From Naegleria gruberi (lineage: Eukaryota), in assembly GCA_000004985.1 (NCBI GenBank), contig GG738899.1: 64,000 nt of DNA; one strand, 5' to 3'. Positions 29,177-64,000 of the stretch are shown piece after piece (position 1 is the stretch's first letter; each line of letters starts with the position of its first letter). The notes beneath the pieces were generated by a model. That model made no database searches. It was not told where the DNA came from and was given only the letters and a program-made list of their open reading frames with translations. The position numbers and the translations under genes are program-made.

Positions 29177-32100
29177 ATGCCAGAAGTAATTACCAGCAGC
29201 ACTGTTGGTAGAACAGCTTTCGGTCCCAACCTTTCCTTGTTGAAGGTAAGTTATTACTCATTTACATCTCGCAGTAATTTTTTTTTGACTTTCTAATAAC
29301 AAACAAACTAAGAACTTCAAAATGAACATGTTGAAAATAATATATAGGGTGGTACAATCTCTCAAACAATTGTTGGTTTAATAGTTTCTGCTTCTGTTGT
29401 TGCCTCTCTCGTTGTTACCATTGTAATGATTAGTGTTGGTGCAGGTGTTCAAAATCCAACATTGAAACCAGACTATTATGAACTTTACAAAAAGACACCA
29501 TCAAAACTCTATCCTCTTCTCAATGATATTGATCCAAGAGGTGGTAATTTGACAATTTTAAATGTTACTCAACCATTACATGGTAAAGCTGTGTTATCTT
29601 CTGCTGGCATGGTTATTTATACAAGTATTGGTTCTTATGCTGGTAATGATACTTTCGAATATTCGGTTACTAATGGATGGACAACTGCGACTGAACATGT
29701 TTATCTTAGTATTTTGAATCGTGCTCCAGAAGTAGTTGACATGACATATACTGTTAATAAGAATTCAAAGAAAAATTCATTTGATTTATTTGGATATGAA
29801 AGTGAAATGGGTGCTAAAATTAAGGATATTGACGGTGATGATTTATCTATTACTGACATTATTCTAGTTTCTCCTAATGTTGGTAGTTTAATCTCATTCG
29901 ATCAAAATTACTTGTACTATACTCCTGCTTATGGTTTTAATAATATTGAATTACTTAACTATACAATCTCAGATGGTTATGCCAATGTTTCAGGTGTCAT
30001 TACTATTAATGTTGCCAATGATAAACCAACAGCTGAACCTGACACTTATACCATTACAAAGAATGCTTTGGGTACTTTTAATATTCTAGATAATGATTTT
30101 GATATTAATGGTGATAACATTTCAATTACCACTGCTGGTTTAGGTTCATCTGGTGTTGTTTTAATTTCCTCTGATAATTCAAATATCGAATATATTCCAA
30201 AGCCATTTGTAGCTCCATATACTGATGCTTTTGAATATGAAATCACTGATGGAGCTTTGACAAGTTCTAGTTATGTTTTTGTAAAGATTGTCAATTCTCC
30301 TCCAACTGTTTCTGATAAGGTTTTCAATGTTGCAAAGAATTCAAAGAATAATCTTTTAGATTTGACATTCTCTGATCCAGATGTACTTGATACTGTTACC
30401 TTGACAGCTGTTAGTAAGCTTGCTCGTGGTAATTCCTCATTGTCTGTTACTAGCTCAATGGCATCTGTTTATTATCCAACAGGTGACTTTTTACAAGTTA
30501 AGAAGAATTTGTACTCTCTTGTTTATACACCAGATCAAGGTGTTATTTATACTGATTCCTTTAAGGTCAAAGTTAGTGATGGTGTGGATGTTGCTTATGC
30601 CACCATTACTATTAATGTAGTTCCTTCTCCTCCTGTTCCTGTTAATGATACTGTCACTTGTCAAAAGAATGGACAAGTCTCTCTTGATGTTATCAGTAAT
30701 GATTATAGTGCTTCTGGTGATGTTTTGAAATTGAATTTTGCATCATCTACTTCCAATTTTGGTGGTAAACTTGTTAAGATTGATGATAATAATGTAAAAT
30801 ATGAGCCAGCTAAAGGATTCCTTGGTCAAGATGAAGCTCAATACATTGTTATTAACACTAACACTGATGGATCTAGTGAAGGTACTTTCAATAGAGAGGG
30901 ATATGTTCTTGTTAATGTTGTGAACTCACCTCCAGTTGCTGTTCCATTAACTTTGACAGTTTCAAAGGGTTTGACAAGTGCTCTTAATTTATTAAGAGAT
31001 AGTTATGATCCAAATGGTGATTCTATTAATTATAATAGTATTGCTAAGAGTACTTATGGAGTTTCATTGTCCTTCACTTCTGGTAATGCAAATGTTAATT
31101 ATGCTGCCTTGTCATCTGTCTACGTTGATTATGTTGACTTTACTGTTGTTGATATTGATGGAGCTATTTCACAAGTTGCTACAGCTACCATTAACGTTGT
31201 TAATGATGCTCCTGTTCCAGTTGATGATACTGCTGCTGTTTCTTGGAATAGAAGTATTGTCATTGATGTTTTGGCAAATGACAAGGATGTTAATGGTGAT
31301 TCTCTAAGTGTTAAGAGTGTTAGTTATACTTCTAATAATGGTGCAACTGTTACTGTTCATCAAGGTGGTAAAACTGTTCTCTACACTCCAAAGGATGGAT
31401 TTGTAGGAAATGATACCTTCTCCTATGTTTGTTTTGATGGAATTGATTCATCTGTCACTTCTGGATTGGTGACAGTTGTTGTTAGTAATACTGCTCCATC
31501 TACTTCTCCAGTTACTGTTAGTGTTCATTGGAGAGATTCTTCAGTTATTATTCCAGTATTGACCTATGCCAGTGATATTGATGGTGATTCTCTTCATGTT
31601 GAATCTTTCACACAAGGATCAAAGGGATCTGTTTCACGTGTTACACTTACTGATGGTACAGATGGTTTGCAATTTACTACTTCTGGGTCAAATAACTATG
31701 TTGGAAGTGATTCTTTTACTTTTGTTGTTAGTGATTATGGTAAATCAAGTGTTGGAAGTGTCAACATTCAAATTACTGACACTGCTCCTGTTGCCAATGC
31801 TGATTCATTCTCAATGCATTGGAGATCAACTGATAATGTTTTATCTGTTCTTGCTAATGATGTCGATGCTAATATTGATCCAATTACTGTCAAATCATTT
31901 ACTAAACCACAAGGTTTTACTGGAACACTTGTCAATGTTAATTCTCATTTGACATTTACACCAAGTGCTTCAAGTGTTGGTACTCAAACATTTACTTACA
32001 CTGCTACTGATGGTCCATCAACAAGTAATGATGCTACTGTCACATTAACTGTTACCAATAAGGATATTCCACAAGATAAGACAATTTCCAAGACTGTTCA

Positions 32101-35100
32101 CTGGTCAACTCAATCAACTGGTACTACTATTACCATTTTCTCAAGTGCCAATCCAGTTGATACTGATGGTGATTCATTGAGTATTTCTTCTACTCTTGTT
32201 TCTCCTTCAAGTGGTTCAATTACAATTTCCAATTCTGATATTCCAAGTGTTGTTTACAAACAAAATACTGGATTCCTTGGAACTGATACTTTCAAGATTC
32301 AAATCTCTGATGGTGCTGCTACTGCTATTGTTACCATTTCTGTTACTGTTTATGATAATGCTCCATTGTCTAATGATATTTCTGAAAATAGACATTTTAC
32401 TGAAGTTAGTAATGGATATACTAAGAATGCAATTTCATTCTTCAATGTTACTGATATCGATTCTCAAGATAGTGTCACTGTTAAGGATGCTACTGTTGGA
32501 TCTTGTGGTTCTGTCTCAAAGACTTCTTCAACTGTCACATTCACAAGTAATAAGGGAAGTGTTGGTGTTTGTACTGTAACTATCACATTTACTGATGGTC
32601 TATTGAATTCTGTATCCAAGTGGAATGTCAATGTTCAAAATCAAGATCCTTCTGCCGCACCAATTAGCACTACCGTTCACTGGAGTAAGAGTCAAGCTAT
32701 TATTGACATTATGTCAACTTTGTCTGATGCTGATAATGATGCCTTGTCTTATTCAGTTTCATCTTATGATTCCACATTCGGTAGCCCATCTATCAATTCT
32801 GATAAGGCTCTCGTATGGACTCTTCCACAAACACCAAAATTAGGAACAACTCAAATTGTAATTTCATTCACAGATGGATGGGTCAGTAAGACTGCTTCTT
32901 ATCCATTGATTGTTCAAAACGTTGCACCAACTGCAGTTGCAAAGACAATTTCATCAAAGTGGTCTGCATGTCTTTCTGGTATTACTATTGATATTTTGAG
33001 TGAATGCTCAGATAATGACGGAGATAGTTTGTCATTTGACAGTACTACGCCAATTGTTACTGCTCCAGCTCAAGGAAGTGCTTCAATTGTTTCTTCAAAG
33101 GTTTATTACAAACAATCAACTGCTTCTGTTGGTTCTTATTCCATTACTTACAAGATTACTGATGGTATTCAAACTTCATCAAACTCTATTACTGTCAATT
33201 GTGAAGATAATGCTCCTGTTGCTAATGCTGATTCAATTACTGTTAATTGGAATACCTCTGATGTCGATATTACTATTTTGTCTAACGATATTGATTCAGA
33301 TAATGATATTCTTTCTGTCACTAATCTTTCAGCTGTCAGTGAAGGTTCTTTAACTAATTTAGGTACTTTTGTTAAATATACTTTGAAGAAACCACCAACC
33401 CTTTCTGACAAGACATTCACCTATAAGGCATTCGACGGAGCTCTCTATTCCTCTGCTGCAACTGTCACTGTCAAAGTTGTCAATGCCAACAAGCCACAAA
33501 TTAGTGATCAAAGTACAACTGCTCACTGGAGAACTGTCAAGGATGGTGTTTCATACACTGTCTATGATACTCTTACCGATGCTGATGGTGATTATTATTC
33601 ACTTTCATTTGGTAGTGGTTCAAGTGCTTATTGTTCACTTATTGACCTTTCGAATGGTATTAAGGGTGTTAAATATACTAGAAATGCATTCGATTCCACT
33701 GATTCTTGTAAAGTAGTTCTCTCTGATGGATTCAGTACAAGTGCTGCCACATTAACAACCAACTCTTACAATAATGTTCCAGTTGCTGCCAACTTTACTT
33801 TAGATTATTCTGGTGGTAATATTCAATATGGTATTTCAATTGATGTTTTGTCATCTGCTACAGATGCTGATATTCAAGATGTTCCATTCCTTTCCATTTT
33901 AAGTGTTGGAAATTCCAAATTATATGGTAGTGAAGCTGCAAATATTGTAAATGGACAAGTTTTCTATTTCCCAGATCAATCATTAGTTAAAGCATTGGGT
34001 ACTGATACTGTTGCTTATACTATTAGTGATGGTTTATCAACATCTATTGGTTATCTCACTATTAACATCAAGTCAACTTCTCCATCCAGTACTGAACAAT
34101 ATTACAATGTTCATTTTAGATATTCAAGTGTTGGTTATGTTTTCACACCATTGACAAAGATTGCAGATGCCACTAAACTTGATACTACTGTTGTTCAAGG
34201 AAGTGAACCAAATCAAGGTGGTTCAGTTGTTGTTTCTAGTGTTGATGAAAAGACAGTTACTTACAAACCATCTGGTTCCTATTTAGGTAATGAAATTTTC
34301 AAGTTAAAGTATTATACTGCTAGTGGTAGTAGTGATATTACTTTTACAATGAATATTTATGATACTGCTCCAATTGCTCAATCACTTTCTGGTTCAGTTC
34401 ATTTTGGTAAATCAACAACATTCAATTTAACTGCTTCAACTTCAGATGCTGATCCATTGGATGTCAATAATTTGTCATTCTCAATTACTGGTCAACCATC
34501 TCAAGGATCTTTGAGTGTTTCATCAAATATTGCCACTTATACTGCATCATCAACTGTTGGAACCTATTCTGGTATTTACAGAGTTTCAGATTCTATGAAA
34601 TCTTCTACTGGTTCTATTACTTTGACTGTAACTAATACTGTTCCTACTTCACAAACTAAAACCATTTCAGTTCCTTGGAGAACTTTCAAGGCAGGTTTTA
34701 ATATTGATGTCTTGAATTTAGCACCAGCTGATTTTGATAATGATGGAGATGAGTTGAGTTTGGTTTCAATTGCTCTTCAACCATCAGTTGGTTCAGTAAC
34801 TAAATTGGATAGTAAGAGAGTTAGTATTGTTGGTTCAGGAAACTTTGTTGGTTCACTTACATTCAAATACATTGTTAGTGATGGTGCCTCAAATGGTCAA
34901 GTCACAACCACAGTTAACTTGAATGTTTACAACACTGCTCCAGTTGGTATTCCAGATAAGCTCTCTACCCACTGGAATGTTGCCTCAAAGACATTGAATG
35001 TTATTGCCAATGACACTGATGCTGAATCAGATCCTTTAACTGTCACATCCGTTTATGGATCTTTAGCTTCAACTGCTCCAACTTTCACTTCTGATAGTAT

Positions 35101-38100
35101 TGTCTATTATCCAAAGAATGCTCCATCAACAGATACAGTTTATTATACAGTTTCTGATAATGTTGCTACATCTATTTCATATGTCACTGTTACTGTAACT
35201 AACACTGCTCCAACTACAACTTCTCAATCATTTGTTGGTTCTTGGTCTTCAGCTAAGAATGGTTTAACATTTGACGTTGTTTCTACTTCTTCTGATGCTA
35301 ATGGAGATTCATTGTCATTGCAATCATGCTCTTCATCAGTTACTTCCTCTCAAGGTAATGTCACTTGTTCTGGAAATGTCAAATTCACTCCAGCCAGTGG
35401 TTTCGTTGGTAGTATCAACCCAATCAGTTATATTATCACTGATGGTAGAGACACTGTCACTGGTACTGTTTCCATTACAATTTTGAATAATGCTCCTACT
35501 GCTAATACTACAAATACTTTCAGATATCATTGGAGAAGTGTTTTGAGTAATACTGTTATTGATCTTTCTTCATATCTCAAAGATGCTGATGGTGATGCTG
35601 TTACTTTGACAGCTGTCACAAAGACACTTGTTGGTGTTGCTTCTCTTGGATCAGGAAATACCATTAACTATAAGGTTAATAGTGCTTACACTGGTACTGA
35701 TTCAGTCACTGTCTCATTCACTGATGGATGGTCAACTTCAAGTGCCACTTTCAATATTGTAATTTACAATAACGCTCCTGTTGCTCAAAATATCATTACT
35801 TCAACTCACTTGGCAACTTTGAACATTCCTGTGATTGGATCTGGTTCAAATCAACCAACAGATGCTGATGGAAGTGTTGATCTTAATAATTTAGTCATTT
35901 CTTCATTCTCAAATCCATCAGTTGGAAGTGTTTCTTTGAGTGGTGATAAGAAATCATTCACATTCACTAACGTTGCTGGAAATGTTGCCACTCAAACATT
36001 TACCTATGTCGTTTCAGATGGAAAGGATACTTCTGCATCAAAGACTGTTACAATTTCCATTACAAACAATGCACCATCTGCAACTCCAATTACCATTTCT
36101 AAACATTGGGCTACAGTACAAGGTGGATTAGATATTAATTTATTGTCTGTTGTAACTGATTCTGATGGTGATTCTCTTTCAATTACTTCATTCACTCAAA
36201 CAAATAATGGAGCTGTTTCTTCAATCAATTCAACATCTGTCAAGTATATTCCAACACCATTGACTGCTGGTTTCACAACTTCATTCACCTATTCAGTTTA
36301 TGATGGTTATACTACAATTTCAAATACTGTTACAATTTCAATTACCAATACACCACCTGTTGCAGTTGATGATACCATCACTGTTCACTGGACCAATAAT
36401 ACATTGTATTTGAAACCAGTTGTGAATGATTATGATTTGGATAATGATTACATTTATATTAACAAATTGTATCCATCTCAATTTATGAATGCCTATGCAT
36501 CAATGGGTAATTATATCATCATTTCAAAGGGAACAACTATTGTTAATAACTTTGCAAGTGTTGTCGTTCCTGGAAGCGTTGCAACTGCTGGATTTGTTAA
36601 TCAAGTTCTTCAACCAACTGGCTCACTAAATGTTAATAATGCTGCTCAACTTGCCATTGTTAATGCTGCTACTAATTTGTATCAATCATTGAGTTTATAT
36701 ACTTGTACTGCTTCATTAGATCAATCATTCCCATCTTCAAATGTTTTGAGTTTCTCACCTGGTGTCTATTGTTTCCCACAAGGTTTATCTGGTTCTGGTA
36801 CCATCTTGTTGAGTGGTTCAGGTCTTTACATTTTCAGTATTTCCACTAATTTGAATGCTAACTTCCAATGGTCATTCACAAATGGAGCTAGTGCTTCAAA
36901 TGTTTATTGGTTGGTTGGTGCTGCTGGTATTTCAGGAACTTTCTATGGTCATGTTTTGAGTAATGGTCAACTCAATTTCAATAATGTTGTTCAAAATGGT
37001 GTTATTATGAGTTTAGGATCAAATTCAATGAGTTTGAATAGTGTTACTTTTGGTTCCGTTGTTATTCCAACTGGACAAACTGCCTTGGAATTACAATCTG
37101 ACAAGTTGACTGTCTATTATAAGAATACTTTCATTAATGGACCAGCAACTGACTCATTCCAATACACAATTACTGATCAAATTGCCACTTCTAATGTTGC
37201 TATTGTCAAATTGGTCTTTACCAATACTGCTCCAGTTGCCACTTCATTCTCAGCTGGTAAAGTTACATGGAAAAATACCTTAACAACTGCAAGTGTTGTT
37301 TCCAAGTATTGTTCTGATGCTGATAAGGATTCATTGAGTTTATTCGGAGTTACTCAAGGTAAATACGGAACTACTACAGTTACCGATTCTACAAGTGGTA
37401 CCATTGTTTATACACCAAGTAGTTCAATTTCCTATACCTCTGTTGATTCCAATGGAGCTAGTTATGTAACTGATCAAATTACTTTTGGATGTTATGATGG
37501 AGCTCAAGTTACATATAACACATTCTCTGTTGTCGTTTACAATACAGCTCCAAAGAGTGCTTCTAAATCACTTAGTGTTCAAAGAGATACTTCAAATCCA
37601 ACTGTTACATTGAATGATTTGTTGGTTGGTGCTACAGATGCTGAGGGTGATTCAATTTCTGTATCAAGTGTTTCAATGATTTCACAAAATACTGGTGCTT
37701 CTGTCTTGTTATCATCCAATACTGCTAAACTCACTTACATAACTTCATATTTAGGTTCAATTGTCTTTTCATTCACTTTAACTGATGGTCAATTGAGTTC
37801 AACTTATAATTATAATGTCACTATTACTGGTGCTCCATTCTATTGTGTTGATTATACCATTAGTACTACCAAAGATTCCTCTGCTGTCACTTTCGAAACT
37901 GATTTAAAGTCTAAATTGTCAAGCTATTGTGTTAATGATGTTTGTACTTTGGCTCTTGCTTCAACTGCATCACTCAATGGAGTTGGTTCAATTGCTGCCA
38001 ATGGTAATAACTTGTTGACATATACTCAAAATTCCAAGTCATCATCAAATGGAGAATCCTATTCCACTTACTCATATTCTAATAGGGCAGGTCAAAGCGC

Positions 38101-40450
38101 AATTTGTAAGATTATCATTAATCAACCAAATAATGCACCAACTGTCTATGATTATACTTATAGTTACTCAATTAGTAGAGCTTCTAATGATTATGTTACA
38201 TTTGATTATGTTAGTTTATCATCCTCTGATGATCCAGATGCTTCTGACTCAATTGTATTGAGTAGTATTTCAAGTGTTGGTACATGTACAACTAGTTCTA
38301 TCAGTAGTTTGTCAATTACTAGTGATAACCAAATCAAATTCTTGAGAAATCCATCATTCATTGGAAGTTGTTCATTCTCTTTGGTTGTTTCTGATAGTGA
38401 TTTGAGAAATCCAATCTCTAAAACTGCAAAAATTACAATCAATGCCATTTCTTCTCCACCAGTTGCTGTCAATGATGCTGTTTCTACAACCTATAACACA
38501 TATATTGATATTCCAGTTTCCACATTACTTGGAAACGATTATGATTCACTTGGTGGTACATTCTCATTCACTGGTATTAATTGCCCAACAGGTGATTCAA
38601 CTTATTGTACAGCAGGCACTCCAACTATTCTCAATCCATCTGATCCTGCAAATACAAGAATCATCAGAGTTCAACCAATTAAGGGATCTTGTAATTCTCA
38701 AAAATTCGTTTATGGTATCAAATCTGATTCTGATTCAACAACTGCCACAGCTATTGTTACAGTTTCTTATACCAAATGTACATGTTCTTTGAATATGGAT
38801 ATTGTATTTGTTTTGGATGGTAGTTCATCTATTGATGCAGGAAATTGGATTAACATGCAAAACTTTGCATCCAATTTAACTGTTGGATTTGGTTCAAACA
38901 TTTCACCAACTGCCACCAAGATTGGTATCATTCAATTCTCTACAACAACTGTAACTCACTTGGATTTGAAAGATGGTACTTCCAAGACAGCTGTTCTTAA
39001 TGCCATTTCATCAGCTGGTCAACTCAAATCCAGTACCAACTCAATTTTAGGTATTAACAATGCTGTTTCAATGGTTTTAAGTCAAGGTAGAAAGGATATC
39101 ACTAGAAAACTCTTAATTCACATTACAGATGGTATGTCCAATTTACCTTGTGGTATGGGAGCTTGTCGTGCCATGTATGGTAGTGATAAGTCATTATATG
39201 GATCTGTTCCTAATTATTGTAAGTCACCTCGTTTCCCAGGTACTGATGCAACAATATGCTCATGGAATGAACCACTCAGTAGATGTAATCCTTGTTCTGA
39301 TGCTACTCTTAGATCAACTGATTTGAATTCTTGGACAGTTGGAGGTGCTTCAAATCCAGAAAAATCAACTTATGGATCTATTTGGAATTGGAGACAATTA
39401 GTTGTAGGTATTGGTGATGGTTTGAGTTCTGGGTATGGACAACTTCAAATTCAAAAGATGAATTACGATCCAAACAATTTAATTGTTGTCGATTGGTCTG
39501 ATTTGAGCTCTGTTTATCAAACTGTTATTGATAATAGTTGTAATCTTGTCGATTCCACTCAAACCAACGTTCTTGTTCCACTTTCAAGTTCTGGATATTC
39601 TATTCAATATCTTGGAAAGACATTGTCCAAATCAAGTTACCTTAATTATGAAGCAACCATTTCAACATTCACTTATCGTGTTAGTGTCTCTTCATCAGCA
39701 CCTGCTTTACAAAGATTTACCTTAGGATTACAACCTGGTTACAATCAAGATAACTTTGTAAATTATGATCCATACTTCCCAGTTTTCATTGGTCAAGACA
39801 CTACCACTAATTTGAATGGTTTCACTTTCTTATCACTTCCAAATTCATATACAATTGCAGCTGGTTCATCAGATACCTATACATTGAGTATTGCTGGTGA
39901 TATTCCTGAAGGTGTTATTACTTATGGTATGTCGGGTGGTTCACAATACACACAAGGAACTGTTAAGGGACCAAGTGGAGTGATCAACTCAACCACAGTT
40001 GCTCTTCCACCAAATATTAATTACGGTGATGATTCAAGTTATAGAACTACCTATTGTTCCTCAACCAAATGTTATTTCTTTACCAAGATGAATTATGCCT
40101 ATCGTATTGAAGCAATGAGTAAGATTTGTAAATATTGGTCTGCCAATGCAACACTAGTTCAAATTCAATCATCCACTGAAAAGACCACACTCATCAATAA
40201 TGTTTTACCTTACGATGAGAGTGCTACCTTCTTCTTAGGTACTAAGGATTCCGATATTGCAGTTGGATCAACAACTACATGGCAAGATGGTACATCCATG
40301 TCCTCCTATACAAATTATCAAAGCAAACAACCTGGTTCCTACACTATTATTTATGCTTCATATAATGCTAATTCTCCAACTGGTACTTGGTGGAAGGGAG
40401 GTAGTTATGATACCAACACTCAATATTTACTTTGTCAATTTAAGAAATAA
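29177..40450 (+). CDS. Giant (about 3700 aa) membrane-anchored adhesin-like protein: tandem bacterial-type cadherin-like/VCBS repeats, ice-binding-like (DUF3494) domain, vWA domain and C-terminal C-type lectin domain
   Basis: Exon 1 is 29177-29245 (MPEVITSSTVGRTAFGPNLSLLK, then gtaagt). After a 102-nt intron it rejoins in frame at 29348 (GGTISQTIVGLIVSASVVASLVVTIVMISVGAG, a TM anchor), continuing as one uninterrupted 11.1-kb exon to the TAA at 40448. The ectodomain has about 25-30 tandem 95-100-aa repeats of consensus ..AP.A.(D/N)...TV......(I/L)(D/N)VL.ND.D..GD.L.(I/V)......G.......V.Y.P..GF.G.D.F.Y...DG......V.I.V.N. Named domains are annotated separately below. Confidence 0.8.
36485..37100 (+). 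other. Ice-binding-like (DUF3494/IBP-1 family) domain within the giant adhesin
   Basis: The region reads ...AAQLAIVNAATNLYQSLSLYTCTASL...LSFSPGVYCF...GTILLSGSGLYIFSISTNLNANFQWSFTNGASASNVYWLVGAAGISGTFYGHVLSNGQLNFNNVVQNGVIMSLGSNSMSLNSVT. This follows the DUF3494 pattern A..DL..AY..L....CT...L.....L.PGVY.F......G.L.LD..G....FIFQ.GS.L.......V.L.NGA.A.NVFWQVGS.A.......F.G.IL.....T......NGR.LA. Confidence 0.55.
38805..39150 (+). other. von Willebrand factor type A (vWA) domain within the giant adhesin
   Basis: It has the MIDAS-type start DIVFVLDGSSSIDAGNW. This is followed by ...IGIIQFSTTTVTHLDLKDG...LLIHITDGMSN, which fits the DxSxS...T...D vWA topology. Confidence 0.7.
40040..40447 (+). other. 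C-type lectin-like domain at the C-terminus of the giant adhesin
   Basis: The region reads CYFFTKMNYAYRIEAMSKICKYWSANATLVQIQSSTEKTTLINNVL...FFLGTKD...WQDGTSMSSYTNYQSKQPG...WWKGGSYDTNTQYLLCQFKK. This matches the CTLD pattern C..YF.....W.EA...C.......L..I.S..E..F.......WIGL.D....W.W.DG....Y.NW...QP.......C......W....C.....YICE. Confidence 0.65.
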
Positions 40451-53781: not shown

Positions 53782-54003
53782 TTATTTAACTTTTCTATAC
53801 TTGTATTCCAATTCCTTATATATTTCCATATATTTATCATCCTTAATATATGTATCCATAAAATCTCTATACATTCTCTTCACATCATAATGAGCAGAAA
53901 GATAAAATCCAGAAACGACACCTATCACAAAGTACATGTTTTTTTTAATTTGAGTTTTCCTTACAAGACTGCCAGGAGAATTGTTTTCCTTCACGATGTT
54001 CAT
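53782..54003 (-). CDS. Small single-TM protein, hypothetical
   Basis: 73-aa ORF with one hydrophobic helix (MYFVIGVVSGFYLSAHY) and a charged, Tyr/Lys-rich C-terminus. It starts 36 nt downstream of the SPCS1 stop on the same strand. Confidence 0.3.
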   Translation of the reverse strand: MNIVKENNSPGSLVRKTQIKKNMYFVIGVVSGFYLSAHYDVKRMYRDFMDTYIKDDKYMEIYKELEYKYRKVK

Positions 54004-54039
54004 TAAAGGAACTTTTGATTACATTGGATATATTGGTCT

Positions 54040-54440
54040 TTATTTTGATTTCTTATCATTATTATTAGTATCTAATTCATCACTAATTGGAATATCACTT
54101 CTCCATTTAACAGCAGCTCTTTTATAGAATGGCCAAGGTGGAACAACAAATATCAAGGCTAAAACTATTCCTAACAGGAAAATTCCTAATGTAAATGAAA
54201 ACCTTTCAAAATAAAATCCAACAATAAATCCTATTATCTATTTAAACGTAATTATTAATATTATTCAATTATTCGTGATGATCAATTTTGGTTCCGATGA
54301 TGAATAAAATAATGATGATTTATAAATTGATTAATACATCTATAATAATATATATATTGAAACATTACTGATGATGAAATTAATAAATATCTGTACACTG
54401 ATTCGGCAAGACTTTGTCCTCTAAAATCGATTGAAGTCAT
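54040..54440 (-). CDS. Signal peptidase complex subunit 1 (SPCS1/SPC12), 2 exons
   Basis: Exon 1 is 54369-54440 (MTSIDFRGQSLAESVYRYLLISSS). A 131-nt intron (gtaatg...aaatag) follows. Exon 2 is 54040-54237 (IIGFIVGFYFERFSFTLGIFLLGIVLALIFVVPPWPFYKRAAVKWRSD...*). Human SPCS1 reads DYKGQKLAEQ...[46 protein letters not shown]. Confidence 0.75.
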
Positions 54441-54636
54441 TTTTTATTATTTGAATTTTATTATTACTACTTGGTTGACGACGTATTTTGTTTATCATCA
54501 TACACGTGTTTTTATTTCGAAAATAATGACAATAGGTTTTATTACACTCTTACAACATTGATGATTTATTAGAAAAGCCTAATTGNNNNNNNNNNNNNNN
54601 NNNNNNNNNNNNNNNNNNNNNNNNNNNNNNNNNNNN

Positions 54637-56201
54637 GTGATTCAACTTATTGTACAGCAGGCACTCCAACTATTCTCAATCCATCTGATCCTGCAAATAC
54701 AAGAATCATCAGAGTTCAACCAATTAAGGGATCTTGTAATTCTCAAAAATTCGTTTATGGTATCAAATCTGATTCTGATTCAACAACTGCCACAGCTATT
54801 GTTACAGTTTCTTATACCAAATGTACATGTTCTTTGAATATGGATATTGTATTTGTTTTGGATGGTAGTTCATCTATTGATGCAGGAAATTGGATTAACA
54901 TGCAAAACTTTGCATCCAATTTAACTGTTGGATTTGGTTCAAACATTTCACCAACTGCCACCAAGATTGGTATCATTCAATTCTCTACAACAACTGTAAC
55001 TCACTTGGATTTGAAAGATGGTACTTCCAAGACAGCTGTTCTTAATGCCATTTCATCAGCTGGTCAACTCAAATCCAGTACCAACTCAATTTTAGGTATT
55101 AACAATGCTGTTTCAATGGTTTTAAGTCAAGGTAGAAAGGATATCACTAGAAAACTCTTAATTCACATTACAGATGGTATGTCCAATTTACCTTGTGGTA
55201 TGGGAGCTTGTCGTGCCATGTATGGTAGTGATAAGTCATTATATGGATCTGTTCCTAATTATTGTAAATCACCTCGTTTCCCAGGTACTGATGCAACAAT
55301 ATGCTCATGGAATGAGCCACTCAGTAGATGTAATCCTTGTTCTGATGCTACTCTTAGATCAACTGATTTGAATTCTTGGACAGTTGGAGGTGCTTCAAAT
55401 CCAGAAAAATCAACTTATGGATCTATTTGGAATTGGAGACAATTAGTTGTAGGTATTGGTGATGGTTTGAGTTCAGGGTATGGACAACTTCAAATTCAAA
55501 AGATGAATTACGATCCAAACAATTTAATTGTTGTCGATTGGTCTGATTTGAGCTCTGTTTATCAAACTGTTATTGATAATAGTTGTAATCTTGTCGATTC
55601 CACTCAAACCAACGTTCTTGTTCCACTTTCAAGTTCTGGATATTCTATTCAATATCTTGGAAAGACATTGTCCAAATCAAGTTACCTTAATTATGAAGCA
55701 ACCATTTCAACATTCACTTATCGTGTTAGTGTCTCTTCATCAGCACCTGCTTTACAAAGATTTACCTTAGGATTACAACCTGGTTACAATCAAGATAACT
55801 TTGTAAATTATGATCCATACTTCCCAGTTTTCATTGGTCAAGACACTACCACTAATTTGAATGGTTTCACTTTCTTATCACTTCCAAATTCATATACAAT
55901 TGCAGCTGGTTCATCAGATACCTATACATTGAGTATTGCTGGTGATATTCCTGAAGGTGTTATTACTTATGGTATGTCGGGTGGTTCACAATACACACAA
56001 GGAACTGTTAAGGGACCAAGTGGAGTGATCAACTCAACCACAGTTGCTCTTCCACCAAATATTAATTACGGTGATGATTCAAGTTATAGAACTACCTATT
56101 GTTCCTCAACCAAATGTTATTTCTTTACCAAGATGAATTATGCCTATCGTATTGAAGCAATGAGTAAGATTTGTAAATATTGGTCTGCCAATGCAACACT
56201 A
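54637..56201 (+). repeat. Near-identical duplicate (over 99.8 percent) of 38592-40156, the vWA to C-type-lectin part of the giant adhesin gene, bounded by assembly gaps
   Basis: The 1565-nt collinear match has an offset of 16045. Only about 3 substitutions were seen by eye, e.g. tattgtaaGtcacc versus tattgtaaAtcacc. N runs lie at 54586-54636 and 56202-64000. Confidence 0.9.
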
Positions 56202-59200
56202 NNNNNNNNNNNNNNNNNNNNNNNNNNNNNNNNNNNNNNNNNNNNNNNNNNNNNNNNNNNNNNNNNNNNNNNNNNNNNNNNNNNNNNNNNNNNNNNNNNN
56301 NNNNNNNNNNNNNNNNNNNNNNNNNNNNNNNNNNNNNNNNNNNNNNNNNNNNNNNNNNNNNNNNNNNNNNNNNNNNNNNNNNNNNNNNNNNNNNNNNNNN
56401 NNNNNNNNNNNNNNNNNNNNNNNNNNNNNNNNNNNNNNNNNNNNNNNNNNNNNNNNNNNNNNNNNNNNNNNNNNNNNNNNNNNNNNNNNNNNNNNNNNNN
56501 NNNNNNNNNNNNNNNNNNNNNNNNNNNNNNNNNNNNNNNNNNNNNNNNNNNNNNNNNNNNNNNNNNNNNNNNNNNNNNNNNNNNNNNNNNNNNNNNNNNN
56601 NNNNNNNNNNNNNNNNNNNNNNNNNNNNNNNNNNNNNNNNNNNNNNNNNNNNNNNNNNNNNNNNNNNNNNNNNNNNNNNNNNNNNNNNNNNNNNNNNNNN
56701 NNNNNNNNNNNNNNNNNNNNNNNNNNNNNNNNNNNNNNNNNNNNNNNNNNNNNNNNNNNNNNNNNNNNNNNNNNNNNNNNNNNNNNNNNNNNNNNNNNNN
56801 NNNNNNNNNNNNNNNNNNNNNNNNNNNNNNNNNNNNNNNNNNNNNNNNNNNNNNNNNNNNNNNNNNNNNNNNNNNNNNNNNNNNNNNNNNNNNNNNNNNN
56901 NNNNNNNNNNNNNNNNNNNNNNNNNNNNNNNNNNNNNNNNNNNNNNNNNNNNNNNNNNNNNNNNNNNNNNNNNNNNNNNNNNNNNNNNNNNNNNNNNNNN
57001 NNNNNNNNNNNNNNNNNNNNNNNNNNNNNNNNNNNNNNNNNNNNNNNNNNNNNNNNNNNNNNNNNNNNNNNNNNNNNNNNNNNNNNNNNNNNNNNNNNNN
57101 NNNNNNNNNNNNNNNNNNNNNNNNNNNNNNNNNNNNNNNNNNNNNNNNNNNNNNNNNNNNNNNNNNNNNNNNNNNNNNNNNNNNNNNNNNNNNNNNNNNN
57201 NNNNNNNNNNNNNNNNNNNNNNNNNNNNNNNNNNNNNNNNNNNNNNNNNNNNNNNNNNNNNNNNNNNNNNNNNNNNNNNNNNNNNNNNNNNNNNNNNNNN
57301 NNNNNNNNNNNNNNNNNNNNNNNNNNNNNNNNNNNNNNNNNNNNNNNNNNNNNNNNNNNNNNNNNNNNNNNNNNNNNNNNNNNNNNNNNNNNNNNNNNNN
57401 NNNNNNNNNNNNNNNNNNNNNNNNNNNNNNNNNNNNNNNNNNNNNNNNNNNNNNNNNNNNNNNNNNNNNNNNNNNNNNNNNNNNNNNNNNNNNNNNNNNN
57501 NNNNNNNNNNNNNNNNNNNNNNNNNNNNNNNNNNNNNNNNNNNNNNNNNNNNNNNNNNNNNNNNNNNNNNNNNNNNNNNNNNNNNNNNNNNNNNNNNNNN
57601 NNNNNNNNNNNNNNNNNNNNNNNNNNNNNNNNNNNNNNNNNNNNNNNNNNNNNNNNNNNNNNNNNNNNNNNNNNNNNNNNNNNNNNNNNNNNNNNNNNNN
57701 NNNNNNNNNNNNNNNNNNNNNNNNNNNNNNNNNNNNNNNNNNNNNNNNNNNNNNNNNNNNNNNNNNNNNNNNNNNNNNNNNNNNNNNNNNNNNNNNNNNN
57801 NNNNNNNNNNNNNNNNNNNNNNNNNNNNNNNNNNNNNNNNNNNNNNNNNNNNNNNNNNNNNNNNNNNNNNNNNNNNNNNNNNNNNNNNNNNNNNNNNNNN
57901 NNNNNNNNNNNNNNNNNNNNNNNNNNNNNNNNNNNNNNNNNNNNNNNNNNNNNNNNNNNNNNNNNNNNNNNNNNNNNNNNNNNNNNNNNNNNNNNNNNNN
58001 NNNNNNNNNNNNNNNNNNNNNNNNNNNNNNNNNNNNNNNNNNNNNNNNNNNNNNNNNNNNNNNNNNNNNNNNNNNNNNNNNNNNNNNNNNNNNNNNNNNN
58101 NNNNNNNNNNNNNNNNNNNNNNNNNNNNNNNNNNNNNNNNNNNNNNNNNNNNNNNNNNNNNNNNNNNNNNNNNNNNNNNNNNNNNNNNNNNNNNNNNNNN
58201 NNNNNNNNNNNNNNNNNNNNNNNNNNNNNNNNNNNNNNNNNNNNNNNNNNNNNNNNNNNNNNNNNNNNNNNNNNNNNNNNNNNNNNNNNNNNNNNNNNNN
58301 NNNNNNNNNNNNNNNNNNNNNNNNNNNNNNNNNNNNNNNNNNNNNNNNNNNNNNNNNNNNNNNNNNNNNNNNNNNNNNNNNNNNNNNNNNNNNNNNNNNN
58401 NNNNNNNNNNNNNNNNNNNNNNNNNNNNNNNNNNNNNNNNNNNNNNNNNNNNNNNNNNNNNNNNNNNNNNNNNNNNNNNNNNNNNNNNNNNNNNNNNNNN
58501 NNNNNNNNNNNNNNNNNNNNNNNNNNNNNNNNNNNNNNNNNNNNNNNNNNNNNNNNNNNNNNNNNNNNNNNNNNNNNNNNNNNNNNNNNNNNNNNNNNNN
58601 NNNNNNNNNNNNNNNNNNNNNNNNNNNNNNNNNNNNNNNNNNNNNNNNNNNNNNNNNNNNNNNNNNNNNNNNNNNNNNNNNNNNNNNNNNNNNNNNNNNN
58701 NNNNNNNNNNNNNNNNNNNNNNNNNNNNNNNNNNNNNNNNNNNNNNNNNNNNNNNNNNNNNNNNNNNNNNNNNNNNNNNNNNNNNNNNNNNNNNNNNNNN
58801 NNNNNNNNNNNNNNNNNNNNNNNNNNNNNNNNNNNNNNNNNNNNNNNNNNNNNNNNNNNNNNNNNNNNNNNNNNNNNNNNNNNNNNNNNNNNNNNNNNNN
58901 NNNNNNNNNNNNNNNNNNNNNNNNNNNNNNNNNNNNNNNNNNNNNNNNNNNNNNNNNNNNNNNNNNNNNNNNNNNNNNNNNNNNNNNNNNNNNNNNNNNN
59001 NNNNNNNNNNNNNNNNNNNNNNNNNNNNNNNNNNNNNNNNNNNNNNNNNNNNNNNNNNNNNNNNNNNNNNNNNNNNNNNNNNNNNNNNNNNNNNNNNNNN
59101 NNNNNNNNNNNNNNNNNNNNNNNNNNNNNNNNNNNNNNNNNNNNNNNNNNNNNNNNNNNNNNNNNNNNNNNNNNNNNNNNNNNNNNNNNNNNNNNNNNNN

Positions 59201-62200
59201 NNNNNNNNNNNNNNNNNNNNNNNNNNNNNNNNNNNNNNNNNNNNNNNNNNNNNNNNNNNNNNNNNNNNNNNNNNNNNNNNNNNNNNNNNNNNNNNNNNNN
59301 NNNNNNNNNNNNNNNNNNNNNNNNNNNNNNNNNNNNNNNNNNNNNNNNNNNNNNNNNNNNNNNNNNNNNNNNNNNNNNNNNNNNNNNNNNNNNNNNNNNN
59401 NNNNNNNNNNNNNNNNNNNNNNNNNNNNNNNNNNNNNNNNNNNNNNNNNNNNNNNNNNNNNNNNNNNNNNNNNNNNNNNNNNNNNNNNNNNNNNNNNNNN
59501 NNNNNNNNNNNNNNNNNNNNNNNNNNNNNNNNNNNNNNNNNNNNNNNNNNNNNNNNNNNNNNNNNNNNNNNNNNNNNNNNNNNNNNNNNNNNNNNNNNNN
59601 NNNNNNNNNNNNNNNNNNNNNNNNNNNNNNNNNNNNNNNNNNNNNNNNNNNNNNNNNNNNNNNNNNNNNNNNNNNNNNNNNNNNNNNNNNNNNNNNNNNN
59701 NNNNNNNNNNNNNNNNNNNNNNNNNNNNNNNNNNNNNNNNNNNNNNNNNNNNNNNNNNNNNNNNNNNNNNNNNNNNNNNNNNNNNNNNNNNNNNNNNNNN
59801 NNNNNNNNNNNNNNNNNNNNNNNNNNNNNNNNNNNNNNNNNNNNNNNNNNNNNNNNNNNNNNNNNNNNNNNNNNNNNNNNNNNNNNNNNNNNNNNNNNNN
59901 NNNNNNNNNNNNNNNNNNNNNNNNNNNNNNNNNNNNNNNNNNNNNNNNNNNNNNNNNNNNNNNNNNNNNNNNNNNNNNNNNNNNNNNNNNNNNNNNNNNN
60001 NNNNNNNNNNNNNNNNNNNNNNNNNNNNNNNNNNNNNNNNNNNNNNNNNNNNNNNNNNNNNNNNNNNNNNNNNNNNNNNNNNNNNNNNNNNNNNNNNNNN
60101 NNNNNNNNNNNNNNNNNNNNNNNNNNNNNNNNNNNNNNNNNNNNNNNNNNNNNNNNNNNNNNNNNNNNNNNNNNNNNNNNNNNNNNNNNNNNNNNNNNNN
60201 NNNNNNNNNNNNNNNNNNNNNNNNNNNNNNNNNNNNNNNNNNNNNNNNNNNNNNNNNNNNNNNNNNNNNNNNNNNNNNNNNNNNNNNNNNNNNNNNNNNN
60301 NNNNNNNNNNNNNNNNNNNNNNNNNNNNNNNNNNNNNNNNNNNNNNNNNNNNNNNNNNNNNNNNNNNNNNNNNNNNNNNNNNNNNNNNNNNNNNNNNNNN
60401 NNNNNNNNNNNNNNNNNNNNNNNNNNNNNNNNNNNNNNNNNNNNNNNNNNNNNNNNNNNNNNNNNNNNNNNNNNNNNNNNNNNNNNNNNNNNNNNNNNNN
60501 NNNNNNNNNNNNNNNNNNNNNNNNNNNNNNNNNNNNNNNNNNNNNNNNNNNNNNNNNNNNNNNNNNNNNNNNNNNNNNNNNNNNNNNNNNNNNNNNNNNN
60601 NNNNNNNNNNNNNNNNNNNNNNNNNNNNNNNNNNNNNNNNNNNNNNNNNNNNNNNNNNNNNNNNNNNNNNNNNNNNNNNNNNNNNNNNNNNNNNNNNNNN
60701 NNNNNNNNNNNNNNNNNNNNNNNNNNNNNNNNNNNNNNNNNNNNNNNNNNNNNNNNNNNNNNNNNNNNNNNNNNNNNNNNNNNNNNNNNNNNNNNNNNNN
60801 NNNNNNNNNNNNNNNNNNNNNNNNNNNNNNNNNNNNNNNNNNNNNNNNNNNNNNNNNNNNNNNNNNNNNNNNNNNNNNNNNNNNNNNNNNNNNNNNNNNN
60901 NNNNNNNNNNNNNNNNNNNNNNNNNNNNNNNNNNNNNNNNNNNNNNNNNNNNNNNNNNNNNNNNNNNNNNNNNNNNNNNNNNNNNNNNNNNNNNNNNNNN
61001 NNNNNNNNNNNNNNNNNNNNNNNNNNNNNNNNNNNNNNNNNNNNNNNNNNNNNNNNNNNNNNNNNNNNNNNNNNNNNNNNNNNNNNNNNNNNNNNNNNNN
61101 NNNNNNNNNNNNNNNNNNNNNNNNNNNNNNNNNNNNNNNNNNNNNNNNNNNNNNNNNNNNNNNNNNNNNNNNNNNNNNNNNNNNNNNNNNNNNNNNNNNN
61201 NNNNNNNNNNNNNNNNNNNNNNNNNNNNNNNNNNNNNNNNNNNNNNNNNNNNNNNNNNNNNNNNNNNNNNNNNNNNNNNNNNNNNNNNNNNNNNNNNNNN
61301 NNNNNNNNNNNNNNNNNNNNNNNNNNNNNNNNNNNNNNNNNNNNNNNNNNNNNNNNNNNNNNNNNNNNNNNNNNNNNNNNNNNNNNNNNNNNNNNNNNNN
61401 NNNNNNNNNNNNNNNNNNNNNNNNNNNNNNNNNNNNNNNNNNNNNNNNNNNNNNNNNNNNNNNNNNNNNNNNNNNNNNNNNNNNNNNNNNNNNNNNNNNN
61501 NNNNNNNNNNNNNNNNNNNNNNNNNNNNNNNNNNNNNNNNNNNNNNNNNNNNNNNNNNNNNNNNNNNNNNNNNNNNNNNNNNNNNNNNNNNNNNNNNNNN
61601 NNNNNNNNNNNNNNNNNNNNNNNNNNNNNNNNNNNNNNNNNNNNNNNNNNNNNNNNNNNNNNNNNNNNNNNNNNNNNNNNNNNNNNNNNNNNNNNNNNNN
61701 NNNNNNNNNNNNNNNNNNNNNNNNNNNNNNNNNNNNNNNNNNNNNNNNNNNNNNNNNNNNNNNNNNNNNNNNNNNNNNNNNNNNNNNNNNNNNNNNNNNN
61801 NNNNNNNNNNNNNNNNNNNNNNNNNNNNNNNNNNNNNNNNNNNNNNNNNNNNNNNNNNNNNNNNNNNNNNNNNNNNNNNNNNNNNNNNNNNNNNNNNNNN
61901 NNNNNNNNNNNNNNNNNNNNNNNNNNNNNNNNNNNNNNNNNNNNNNNNNNNNNNNNNNNNNNNNNNNNNNNNNNNNNNNNNNNNNNNNNNNNNNNNNNNN
62001 NNNNNNNNNNNNNNNNNNNNNNNNNNNNNNNNNNNNNNNNNNNNNNNNNNNNNNNNNNNNNNNNNNNNNNNNNNNNNNNNNNNNNNNNNNNNNNNNNNNN
62101 NNNNNNNNNNNNNNNNNNNNNNNNNNNNNNNNNNNNNNNNNNNNNNNNNNNNNNNNNNNNNNNNNNNNNNNNNNNNNNNNNNNNNNNNNNNNNNNNNNNN

Positions 62201-64000
62201 NNNNNNNNNNNNNNNNNNNNNNNNNNNNNNNNNNNNNNNNNNNNNNNNNNNNNNNNNNNNNNNNNNNNNNNNNNNNNNNNNNNNNNNNNNNNNNNNNNNN
62301 NNNNNNNNNNNNNNNNNNNNNNNNNNNNNNNNNNNNNNNNNNNNNNNNNNNNNNNNNNNNNNNNNNNNNNNNNNNNNNNNNNNNNNNNNNNNNNNNNNNN
62401 NNNNNNNNNNNNNNNNNNNNNNNNNNNNNNNNNNNNNNNNNNNNNNNNNNNNNNNNNNNNNNNNNNNNNNNNNNNNNNNNNNNNNNNNNNNNNNNNNNNN
62501 NNNNNNNNNNNNNNNNNNNNNNNNNNNNNNNNNNNNNNNNNNNNNNNNNNNNNNNNNNNNNNNNNNNNNNNNNNNNNNNNNNNNNNNNNNNNNNNNNNNN
62601 NNNNNNNNNNNNNNNNNNNNNNNNNNNNNNNNNNNNNNNNNNNNNNNNNNNNNNNNNNNNNNNNNNNNNNNNNNNNNNNNNNNNNNNNNNNNNNNNNNNN
62701 NNNNNNNNNNNNNNNNNNNNNNNNNNNNNNNNNNNNNNNNNNNNNNNNNNNNNNNNNNNNNNNNNNNNNNNNNNNNNNNNNNNNNNNNNNNNNNNNNNNN
62801 NNNNNNNNNNNNNNNNNNNNNNNNNNNNNNNNNNNNNNNNNNNNNNNNNNNNNNNNNNNNNNNNNNNNNNNNNNNNNNNNNNNNNNNNNNNNNNNNNNNN
62901 NNNNNNNNNNNNNNNNNNNNNNNNNNNNNNNNNNNNNNNNNNNNNNNNNNNNNNNNNNNNNNNNNNNNNNNNNNNNNNNNNNNNNNNNNNNNNNNNNNNN
63001 NNNNNNNNNNNNNNNNNNNNNNNNNNNNNNNNNNNNNNNNNNNNNNNNNNNNNNNNNNNNNNNNNNNNNNNNNNNNNNNNNNNNNNNNNNNNNNNNNNNN
63101 NNNNNNNNNNNNNNNNNNNNNNNNNNNNNNNNNNNNNNNNNNNNNNNNNNNNNNNNNNNNNNNNNNNNNNNNNNNNNNNNNNNNNNNNNNNNNNNNNNNN
63201 NNNNNNNNNNNNNNNNNNNNNNNNNNNNNNNNNNNNNNNNNNNNNNNNNNNNNNNNNNNNNNNNNNNNNNNNNNNNNNNNNNNNNNNNNNNNNNNNNNNN
63301 NNNNNNNNNNNNNNNNNNNNNNNNNNNNNNNNNNNNNNNNNNNNNNNNNNNNNNNNNNNNNNNNNNNNNNNNNNNNNNNNNNNNNNNNNNNNNNNNNNNN
63401 NNNNNNNNNNNNNNNNNNNNNNNNNNNNNNNNNNNNNNNNNNNNNNNNNNNNNNNNNNNNNNNNNNNNNNNNNNNNNNNNNNNNNNNNNNNNNNNNNNNN
63501 NNNNNNNNNNNNNNNNNNNNNNNNNNNNNNNNNNNNNNNNNNNNNNNNNNNNNNNNNNNNNNNNNNNNNNNNNNNNNNNNNNNNNNNNNNNNNNNNNNNN
63601 NNNNNNNNNNNNNNNNNNNNNNNNNNNNNNNNNNNNNNNNNNNNNNNNNNNNNNNNNNNNNNNNNNNNNNNNNNNNNNNNNNNNNNNNNNNNNNNNNNNN
63701 NNNNNNNNNNNNNNNNNNNNNNNNNNNNNNNNNNNNNNNNNNNNNNNNNNNNNNNNNNNNNNNNNNNNNNNNNNNNNNNNNNNNNNNNNNNNNNNNNNNN
63801 NNNNNNNNNNNNNNNNNNNNNNNNNNNNNNNNNNNNNNNNNNNNNNNNNNNNNNNNNNNNNNNNNNNNNNNNNNNNNNNNNNNNNNNNNNNNNNNNNNNN
63901 NNNNNNNNNNNNNNNNNNNNNNNNNNNNNNNNNNNNNNNNNNNNNNNNNNNNNNNNNNNNNNNNNNNNNNNNNNNNNNNNNNNNNNNNNNNNNNNNNNNN
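56202..64000. other. Assembly gap (N run)
   Basis: Continuous Ns to the end of the window. There is also a 51-nt N gap at 54586-54636. Confidence 1.

What the first reader, a model, noticed from the sequence alone, without database searches (positions are those of the whole stretch)
54586..56201. Near-identical second copy of the adhesin's vWA-lectin end flanked by N gaps: paralogue or uncollapsed assembly
Positions 54637-56201 repeat 38592-40156 with only about 3 substitutions in 1565 nt. N gaps lie on both sides and a 7.8-kb N run follows. There are two possible explanations. One is a very recent tandem or segmental duplicate of the giant gene whose repetitive body could not be assembled and is hidden in the gaps. 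The other is an allelic or misassembled fragment. The first would mean at least two giant adhesin genes in head-to-tail arrangement.
Basis: seen in the sequence. Interest (0 to 1): 0.55.

Follow-up and report, generated by a model that had tools for sequence, protein, structure and literature searches.

The report
Orphan duplicate contig in Naegleria assembly
A 1.6-kb piece of a giant Naegleria gruberi surface-protein gene appears a second time, between assembly gaps; it is most likely a stray contig of the other chromosome copy in a 2010 draft assembly, not a second gene, though only read data can prove this.

Summary
Window 54637-56201 equals 38592-40156 over 1565 nt with 3 substitutions, and N runs lie on both sides (51 N; 7799 N running to the window end). 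The window is Naegleria gruberi NEG-M, a Sanger draft of an organism described as a heterozygous diploid. The copied segment is residues 3106-3626 of a 3723-aa type II membrane protein (NAEGRDRAFT_72752) and covers its VWA domain and the start of a C-type-lectin-like tip.

All 3 differences are synonymous third-position changes (P about 0.012 by chance), so they are real variants. All lie at least 631 nt from either end, so the island is about one Sanger read either side of a SNP cluster.

The gene body is not repetitive at DNA level. The missing 9.4 kb of gene would have to fit the 51-N gap, because the large N run is on the 3' side.

Best reading (0.55): a false duplication, i.e. allelic or variant reads scaffolded into the nearest gap. 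Rivals are a real partial or tandem duplication with a 16,045-nt period (0.28), a second full giant gene (0.07) and sequencing error only (0.05). Sequence alone cannot decide; read depth, mate pairs or long reads can. Interest is low.

The parts
54586..54636 (.). 51-N assembly gap between the long contig (1-54585) and the island
   Evidence: Sequence left of it (53600-54585) is unique AT-rich intergenic DNA upstream of a small minus-strand ORF and has no similarity to the giant gene.
54637..56201 (+). Island contig: second copy of the 3' part of the giant gene. It equals ORF residues 3057-3577, or 3106-3626 of the 3723-aa conceptual protein. It is an open frame of 521 codons.
56202..64000 (.). 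7799-N run to the window end: a scaffold gap of at least 7.8 kb, or padding beyond a scaffold end
38592..40156 (+). Copy 1 of the duplicated segment, lying inside an uninterrupted 54.6-kb contig
39223..39430 (+). 208-nt patch holding all 3 differences (39223 G/A, 39271 A/G, 39430 T/A; island positions 55268, 55316, 55475). All are synonymous third-position changes (AAG/AAA Lys, GAA/GAG Glu, TCT/TCA Ser).
29177..29245 (+). Exon 1 of the giant gene (MPEVITSSTVGRTAFGPNLSLLK)
   Evidence: matches the N-terminus of the annotated model NAEGRDRAFT_72752
29246..29347 (+). 102-nt spliceosomal intron (GTAAGT...TAG)
29348..40450 (+). Exon 2: a transmembrane anchor (IVGLIVSASVVASLVVTIVMISVGAGV), about 24-30 Big_9/cadherin-like (tandem-95-type) repeats, an Ice_binding-like domain, VWA, an unassigned ~160-aa domain, a C-type-lectin-like tip and a TAA stop
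38798..39142 (+). VWA domain (N-terminal two thirds of the Pfam profile, followed by a Cys-rich insertion). Repeated in the island at 54843-55187.
40043..40447 (+). C-type lectin-like domain. Only its first 38 residues fall inside the duplicated segment.
   Evidence: sub-threshold Pfam hit, in the paralogue only; profile versus PDB

Best explanation
The island is a false duplication in the 2010 JGI Sanger draft of Naegleria gruberi NEG-M. It would be a minimal contig of a few reads carrying the alternative haplotype, or another variant read set, of the single giant gene NAEGRDRAFT_72752. Those reads were kept apart from the main contig at a local cluster of three SNPs. Their true position was already occupied by a contiguous 54.6-kb contig, so the scaffolder put them in the nearest free slot 16 kb downstream with a nominal 51-N gap. 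On this reading there is one gene, and the three differences are heterozygous sites. Shown here: the identity, the geometry, the nature of the differences and the organism. Inferred: the mechanism of separation and of misplacement.
For: (1) Organism. The UFL1 ORF is 100% identical to an N. gruberi protein on a 331,038-bp scaffold, and the giant gene is XP_002672240.1 on the same scaffold. The assembly is Sanger data, 1977 contigs in 784 scaffolds (PMC6125883; PMC8040595). Naegleria is described as 'mainly a heterozygous diploid', heterozygosity is reported for the N. gruberi genome (PMC9928731), and it is described as mosaic (PMC6201504). (2) The island meets the operational definition of a 'duplicated contained contig': 100% of its length aligns at 99.8% to a site 16 kb away inside another contig. 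In Sanger assemblies of diploids, 30-52% of such contigs (chicken, chimpanzee, cow) were shown by mate pairs to be haplotype mis-assemblies, and most were under 2 kb (PMC2864568). (3) All 3 differences are synonymous third-position changes. That has P=0.012 if substitutions were random, or 0.023 with transition bias. They are therefore real variants filtered by selection, as expected for alleles of a functional gene and less so for a truncated dead copy. (4) All 3 differences lie in a 208-nt patch at least 631 nt from either end. Own arithmetic from the coordinates: (303/1565)^3 = 0.007 under a uniform spread. The island therefore spans about one Sanger read on each side of the SNP cluster, and its ends (mid-codon, mid-domain) are technical, not biological. 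(5) No sequence joins the island to either flank: both sides are N. The left flank has no similarity to the gene. If the island were truly ~51 nt from 54585, about 6 spanning reads would be expected. That figure assumes roughly 8x coverage and ~700-nt reads, both recalled from the genome paper and not checked here. (6) The 90% cluster of the annotated protein has one member, so no separate gene model exists for the island. The known paralogues are old (47-60% identity in the tip) and lie on other scaffolds.
Against: (a) 99.8% identity is unusually high for a haplotype split: Kelley and Salzberg report a median of 98.1% and 'few contigs above 99.5%'. Assemblers normally merge such reads. (b) Placement 16 kb from the true site would violate 3-kb and 8-kb plasmid mate constraints and strain fosmid constraints. 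A real second locus explains the placement more naturally. (c) The island abuts a contig end and, if the N run is a real gap, is followed by at least 7.8 kb of unassembled sequence. That is what a collapsed tandem duplication with a 16,045-nt period would produce. (d) Only one such island occurs in 56 kb, so the rest of the region must be homozygous or have SNPs too sparse to split reads. (e) No read-level data were available, so depth and mate pairs were not tested.
Confidence: 0.55

Rival explanations
1. A real, very recent partial duplication. In this reading a segment beginning inside the giant gene near 38.5 kb is repeated after 54.6 kb. The simplest form is a tandem duplication with a period of about 16,045 nt covering the gene's VWA-lectin tip plus the downstream genes. 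Reads of the second unit collapsed onto the first, leaving the island and a long gap. The second copy would be a tip-only fragment, either a pseudogene or a short gene.
For: The start-to-start spacing is 16,045 nt, and the island begins 51 N after the contig end. A collapsed tandem unit predicts exactly this: the contig breaks at the unit end, then the start of unit 2, then a long gap. Placement 16 kb away is natural if mates anchor it there. 99.8% identity is too high for typical haplotype splits. The family does duplicate: three paralogues exist in N. gruberi. A tip-only copy of a paralogue with a sharp upstream breakpoint exists in an independent contig, L001, although that contig may be chimeric.
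Against: No junction sequence is assembled across a gap written as only 51 nt. A truncated copy without a promoter or membrane anchor should accumulate random changes, yet 3 of 3 differences are synonymous. I estimate that pattern at about 0.06 if one copy is dead versus about 0.3 under constraint on both; this is a rough calculation and not a tool result. No further variant islands occur in the next 7.8 kb or more. The known paralogues are old and dispersed, not tandem.
Confidence: 0.28
2. A second full-length giant gene lies head-to-tail with the first. Its 9.4-kb upstream body would be collapsed onto copy 1 and hidden in the gaps.
For: The copies are in the same orientation. The island is an intact open frame, and all differences are synonymous, as expected for two functional copies. 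If the N run is a real gap, the total unassembled span (at least 9.4 kb) is of the order of the gene length.
Against: The 9,415 nt of missing upstream gene must sit where the assembly writes 51 N. The 7.8-kb N run is on the 3' side, where only 294 nt of CDS are missing, so both gap estimates would have to be badly wrong. The body is not DNA-repetitive, so the proposed reason for non-assembly does not apply. No second model is annotated.
Confidence: 0.07
3. The island is the same locus and the same allele. In this reading it is two or three misplaced or chimeric-clone reads whose three differences are base-calling errors in overlapping low-quality read tails.
For: The differences sit 632-839 nt from the left end and 727-934 nt from the right end. 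That is where the 3' tails of two opposed Sanger reads would overlap.
Against: Three of three synonymous third-position changes has P of 0.012-0.023 for random errors. There is not a single indel in 1565 nt, which is unlike poor-quality tails.
Confidence: 0.05

Closest known systems
False segmental duplication from haplotype divergence ('duplicated contained contig', Kelley & Salzberg 2010, PMC2864568)
   Same: It is a small contig under 2 kb, flanked by gaps, that aligns over its whole length at over 95% identity to a site within 50 kb inside a larger contig. It comes from a Sanger whole-genome shotgun assembly of a heterozygous diploid.
   Different: The identity of 99.8% is above the range typical for such errors (median 98.1%, few above 99.5%). 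The decisive mate-pair likelihood test could not be run. The assembler is believed to be JAZZ, from my recollection of the genome paper and not verified here; it was not among those studied.
Recent tandem or segmental duplication collapsed in a draft assembly
   Same: The copies are near-identical and in direct orientation 16 kb apart. The second copy starts at a contig break and is followed by unassembled sequence.
   Different: No junction or unique flank is attached to the second copy. Copy number is untested. The second copy would be a truncated gene tip.
Giant bacterial repeat adhesins (tandem-95 repeat / Big_9 / VCBS proteins) with distal ligand-binding modules
   Same: The gene containing the segment has about 24-30 Big_9/Cadherin_4/5 repeats. 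The best hits to its first 1000 aa are bacterial tandem-95 or VCBS proteins at 25-31% identity. Its binding-type domains (Ice_binding-like, VWA, C-type lectin-like) lie towards the far end.
   Different: It is a eukaryotic gene. It has a spliceosomal intron, an N-terminal signal-anchor (type II topology) and two N. gruberi paralogues. Adhesive function has not been tested.

Membership tests
False duplication / duplicated contained contig (Kelley & Salzberg) | The contig aligns over more than 93% of its length at more than 95% identity to sequence within 50 kb | tested here: met
   100% of 1565 nt at 99.81% identity, 16,045 nt upstream
False duplication / duplicated contained contig (Kelley & Salzberg) | The match is contained within another, larger contig | tested here: met
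   38592-40156 lies inside the N-free stretch 1-54585
False duplication / duplicated contained contig (Kelley & Salzberg) | [quoted passage not shown] | not testable with these tools
   This needs the read placements and libraries of the JGI assembly
False duplication / duplicated contained contig (Kelley & Salzberg) | Single-copy read depth over the twin, with about 50% allele balance at the variant sites | not testable with these tools
   No read data were available
False duplication / duplicated contained contig (Kelley & Salzberg) | The sequenced organism is heterozygous and non-haploid | tested here: met
   The organism was identified as N. gruberi NEG-M. Heterozygosity comes from the literature only (PMC9928731; PMC6201504).
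Genuine recent segmental duplication | Two copies of at least 1 kb at 90% identity or more | tested here: met
Genuine recent segmental duplication | Each copy is joined to its own unique flanking sequence (junctions) | tested here: not met
   Both flanks of the island are N runs. The end of the left contig has no similarity to the gene.
Genuine recent segmental duplication | Doubled read depth, or long reads spanning both copies | not testable with these tools
   No read data were available
Second complete giant gene, head-to-tail | Room for about 9.4 kb of gene 5' of the island and about 0.3 kb 3' of it | tested here: not met
   The 5' gap is written as 51 N, and the large N run is 3' of the island. 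Gap sizes are assembler estimates, so this is not absolute.
VWA domain (PF00092) | Profile match above the Pfam gathering score | tested here: met
   73-75 bits against a cut-off of 23.8; integrin I-domain and collagen VI hits in the PDB
C-type lectin-like domain (PF00059) | Profile match above the Pfam gathering score | tested here: inconclusive
   There is no Pfam hit for the window protein. The paralogue scores 20.1 bits against a cut-off of 22.6. A 3-sequence profile does hit snaclec and DC-SIGN CRD structures at E 1.5e-6 to 1e-3.
Tandem-95 repeat / Big_9 repeat proteins | Multiple Big_9/Cadherin_4/5 repeats above threshold | tested here: met
   Big_9 610 bits with 24 stretches; Cadherin_4 417 bits; Cadherin_5 364 bits. 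A UniRef name for the paralogue is 'Tandem-95 repeat protein'.

The most novel reading that the evidence does not exclude
N. gruberi NEG-M really carries a very young (about 0.2% diverged, still selectively constrained) extra copy of the ligand-binding VWA / C-type-lectin tip of a giant type II surface protein. It would be either a second giant gene or a tip-only gene. Together with the tip-only copy of a paralogue seen in contig L001, this would hint that the binding tips of this family are duplicated and reshuffled as cassettes.
Probability: 0.3. Interest if true: 0.35.

Novelty: not a real feature. Interest (0 to 1): 0.12.

Why it matters
If it is an artefact, its value is practical. The island should be removed or merged in the N. 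gruberi reference. The three differences become heterozygous SNPs in NAEGRDRAFT_72752. Gene-family counts should not include a second copy. If the duplication were real, it would be an ordinary young segmental duplication affecting a surface-protein gene. That would interest people working on Naegleria cell-surface diversity but would not be surprising. Neither outcome bears on an open question of wider reach.

Tried and rejected
Several attempts led nowhere.

- Exact-protein look-ups for window ORFs and for the N. gruberi UFL1 protein found nothing on record. The N. gruberi scaffold could therefore not be fetched, and the true length of the N run and what lies beyond it remain unknown.
- A word-indexed protein search with the island and with the first 1000 aa returned no N. 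gruberi protein. I first read this as 'gene not annotated', and that was wrong. All hits were 1740 aa or shorter, and the exhaustive representative search then found the annotated 2816-aa model and two paralogues.
- A full-length 3674-aa query timed out.
- Two metagenome scans gave only one distant 1.6-kb contig, so there is no independent assembly of this locus.
- I tested whether the three island variants could come from gene conversion by a paralogue. They do not match the homologous codons of L001.
- I looked for similarity between the contig end (53600-54585) and any part of the gene or its upstream region, which would reveal a duplication boundary. None was found.
- I looked for DNA-level repeats in the gene body that could explain assembly failure. 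None was found.
- Neighbours of the tip-only copy in L001 have no cluster mates at 90% identity in N. gruberi. L001 may be chimeric and was not used as strong evidence.
- The Cell 2010 genome paper and its 2011 review are not held. No heterozygosity rate or JAZZ gap convention could be cited.

Full report
**Observation.** The window has two N runs: 54586-54636 (51 N) and 56202-64000 (7799 N, reaching the last base of the window). Between them lie 1565 bases (54637-56201). These align without gaps to 38592-40156 with 3 mismatches, 99.81% identity. This is the only long repeat in the window, and the island matches nothing else. One caveat: the second N run may be a scaffold gap of at least 7.8 kb or padding after a scaffold end, and the window cannot tell which.

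**Source and gene.**
- Composition, TAA-dominated stops and low-complexity proteins indicated a eukaryote.
- The UFL1-like ORF 47962-50643 is 100% identical to a 'predicted protein [Naegleria gruberi]' on a 331,038-bp scaffold.
- An exhaustive representative search followed by a cluster look-up identified the giant gene as NAEGRDRAFT_72752 / XP_002672240.1 / D2VUR0 on the same scaffold.
- The gene has a 69-nt first exon (29177-29245), a 102-nt GTAAGT...TAG intron, and an uninterrupted second exon 29348-40450.
- The conceptual product is 3723 aa. It has a short N-terminal tail and one transmembrane anchor, followed by about 24-30 Big_9/Cadherin_4/5 repeats.
- Further along come an Ice_binding-like domain and a VWA domain. 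These are followed by an unassigned ~160-aa domain and a C-type-lectin-like tip (Pfam itself is sub-threshold).
- The island corresponds to residues 3106-3626. It contains the whole VWA domain, the unassigned domain and the first 38 residues of the lectin-like domain. It stops 294 nt before the stop codon.

**The differences.**
- The island is an open frame of 521 codons, and its protein is identical to copy 1.
- All three substitutions are synonymous third-position changes.
- Only 22.9% of possible single-base changes in this segment are synonymous. The chance of 3 out of 3 is 0.012, or 0.023 with transition bias. They are therefore genuine variants that have passed selection, not random base-calling errors.
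- All three fall within 208 nt (P=0.048), and all lie at least 631 nt from either end of the island. Under a uniform spread that has probability (303/1565)^3 = 0.007 (own arithmetic on the coordinates).
- The island is thus about one Sanger read length either side of a SNP cluster. This is the footprint expected when only the reads carrying the variants are kept apart.
- Its ends fall mid-codon and mid-domain, so they are technical rather than biological boundaries.
- This footprint is expected whether the variants are allelic or paralogous. It says the island is small because of the assembler, not because the second sequence is short.

**Geometry.**
- The island has the same orientation as copy 1. 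A head-to-tail second gene would need 9,415 nt of gene 5' of the island, where the assembly writes 51 N. The 7.8-kb N run lies 3' of it, where only 294 nt of CDS are missing.
The gene's repeats are diverged at DNA level: self-BLAST gives only a 43-nt and a 25-nt off-diagonal match, and TRF finds nothing in the gene beyond one 40-nt, two-copy match. Copy 1 is assembled without gaps.
- A second body could be absent only by collapse onto the first.
- The geometry is compatible with two other models. In the first, a variant contig whose true place (38.6 kb) is occupied is pushed to the nearest free slot with a nominal gap. In the second, a tandem duplication with a 16,045-nt period has its second unit starting at the contig break and the rest collapsed.
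- The end of the left contig shows no similarity to the gene. No assembled sequence therefore crosses the putative junction.

**Context from the literature.**
- The N. gruberi NEG-M assembly is a Sanger draft of 1977 contigs in 784 scaffolds (PMC6125883; PMC8040595).
- Naegleria is described as mainly a heterozygous diploid. Heterozygosity was reported for the N. gruberi genome (PMC9928731) and is described as mosaic (PMC6201504).
- Kelley and Salzberg (PMC2864568) defined 'duplicated contained contigs': over 93% of length at over 95% identity within 50 kb. They showed by mate pairs that 30-52% of them in the chicken, chimpanzee and cow assemblies are haplotype mis-assemblies. Most are under 2 kb, and one example of 1,537 bp is given.
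- The island meets that definition.
- Against this, they found a median identity of 98.1% and few cases above 99.5%, so 99.8% is atypically high.

**Family context.**
- N. gruberi has at least two further paralogues with the same architecture on other scaffolds: NAEGRDRAFT_79811 (47% identity in the tip) and NAEGRDRAFT_79080 (about 55-60%).
- They are old and dispersed. No separate model exists for the island, because the 90% cluster of the annotated protein has one member.
- The island's variants do not match the homologous codons of the one paralogue for which DNA was available, so there is no sign of gene conversion from it.
- That DNA is ENA contig L001. It carries a copy 99.6% identical to the last 741 aa of NAEGRDRAFT_79080, with an abrupt loss of similarity upstream. 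This is either a tip-only copy or a chimeric contig. I treat it only as a weak precedent for tip duplication.

**Weighing.**
- For the artefact: a heterozygous organism, a Sanger draft, the classic contained-contig pattern and no junction on either side. In addition, the variants are selectively filtered, which fits alleles of one functional gene, and no recent paralogues are known.
- For a real duplication: the very high identity, the 16-kb displacement (hard to reconcile with plasmid mate pairs), and the coincidence of the island with a contig end followed by a long unassembled stretch.
- I put the false duplication at 0.55, a real partial or tandem duplication at 0.28, a second full giant gene at 0.07, and an error-only artefact at 0.05.
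- None of these can be settled without reads. The decisive tests are read depth and allele balance, mate-pair likelihood, a junction PCR, and long reads.

**Verdict.** The most exciting reading, two giant genes head-to-tail, is the least supported. The most likely reading is an assembly artefact in a published draft genome. The finding is of low interest; its practical value is as an assembly and annotation correction.

Noticed in passing
window 10436-10508 (+): A canonical-looking tRNA (Rfam 70.8 bits; clean cloverleaf, z = -3.8) has anticodon UUA, which would read the ochre stop UAA. Yet 22 of 27 long ORFs in this window end in TAA. From memory, its body resembles tRNA-Lys(UUU) with one anticodon change. 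It could be a suppressor tRNA, a pseudogene or a miscall; this is unresolved.
   Followed up: partly
window 29177-40450 (+): The annotated model NAEGRDRAFT_72752 (2816 aa) removes four in-frame blocks (about 907 aa in total) from what is one uninterrupted ORF. The conceptual protein is 3723 aa. These are probably spurious introns placed in Ig-like repeats.
   Followed up: yes
window 36533-37015 (+): An Ice_binding-like domain (PF11999/DUF3494; E 6.2e-10, 39.5 bits against a cut-off of 28.7) is embedded among the repeats of the giant protein. The whole-protein Pfam scan missed it.
   Followed up: partly
window 29177-29440 (+): The giant protein has a short N-terminal tail and a single hydrophobic anchor (IVGLIVSASVVASLVVTIVMISVGAGV), which gives a type II topology. 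This places the VWA and lectin-like modules at the far extracellular end. The same N-terminus is conserved in both paralogues.
   Followed up: partly
window 29426-32425 (+) and the whole gene: The repeats are of the bacterial tandem-95 / Big_9 / VCBS type. The best hits to the first 1000 aa are bacterial or metagenomic proteins at 25-31% identity. The gene nevertheless has a spliceosomal intron and two N. gruberi paralogues. An old bacterial origin of the repeat module is possible but was not tested.
   Followed up: no
L001 2552-4812: An ENA 'metagenome' contig (ERZ929261 / ERR1078381, PRJEB11402) encodes a protein 99.6% identical to the last 741 aa of N. gruberi NAEGRDRAFT_79080. Similarity stops abruptly at L001:2552. 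The upstream genes, including a DUF4495 gene, have no cluster mates at 90% identity in N. gruberi. It is either a tip-only gene copy in an N. gruberi-like strain or a chimeric contig.
   Followed up: partly
window 1470-1598 and 26599-26727; also 19198-19301 and 21446-21549: Two tRNA-Glu(UUC) genes sit in a 129-nt direct repeat at 96% identity, 25 kb apart. A separate 104-nt repeat pair at 95% identity lies 2.2 kb apart.
   Followed up: no
window 39503-39990 (+): The ~160-aa domain between the VWA and the lectin-like tip has no Pfam match. It is conserved in the paralogues and gives weak hits (E 1e-7 to 1e-3) to about a dozen unnamed proteins of 220-970 aa in the representative library. It is an unassigned domain.
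   Followed up: no
method (versus 53): The word-indexed protein search returned no hit longer than 1740 aa. It missed the 2816-aa, 2704-aa and 2366-aa N. gruberi proteins that the exhaustive search found. Absence of hits to giant proteins in that tool should not be read as absence of annotation.
   Followed up: yes
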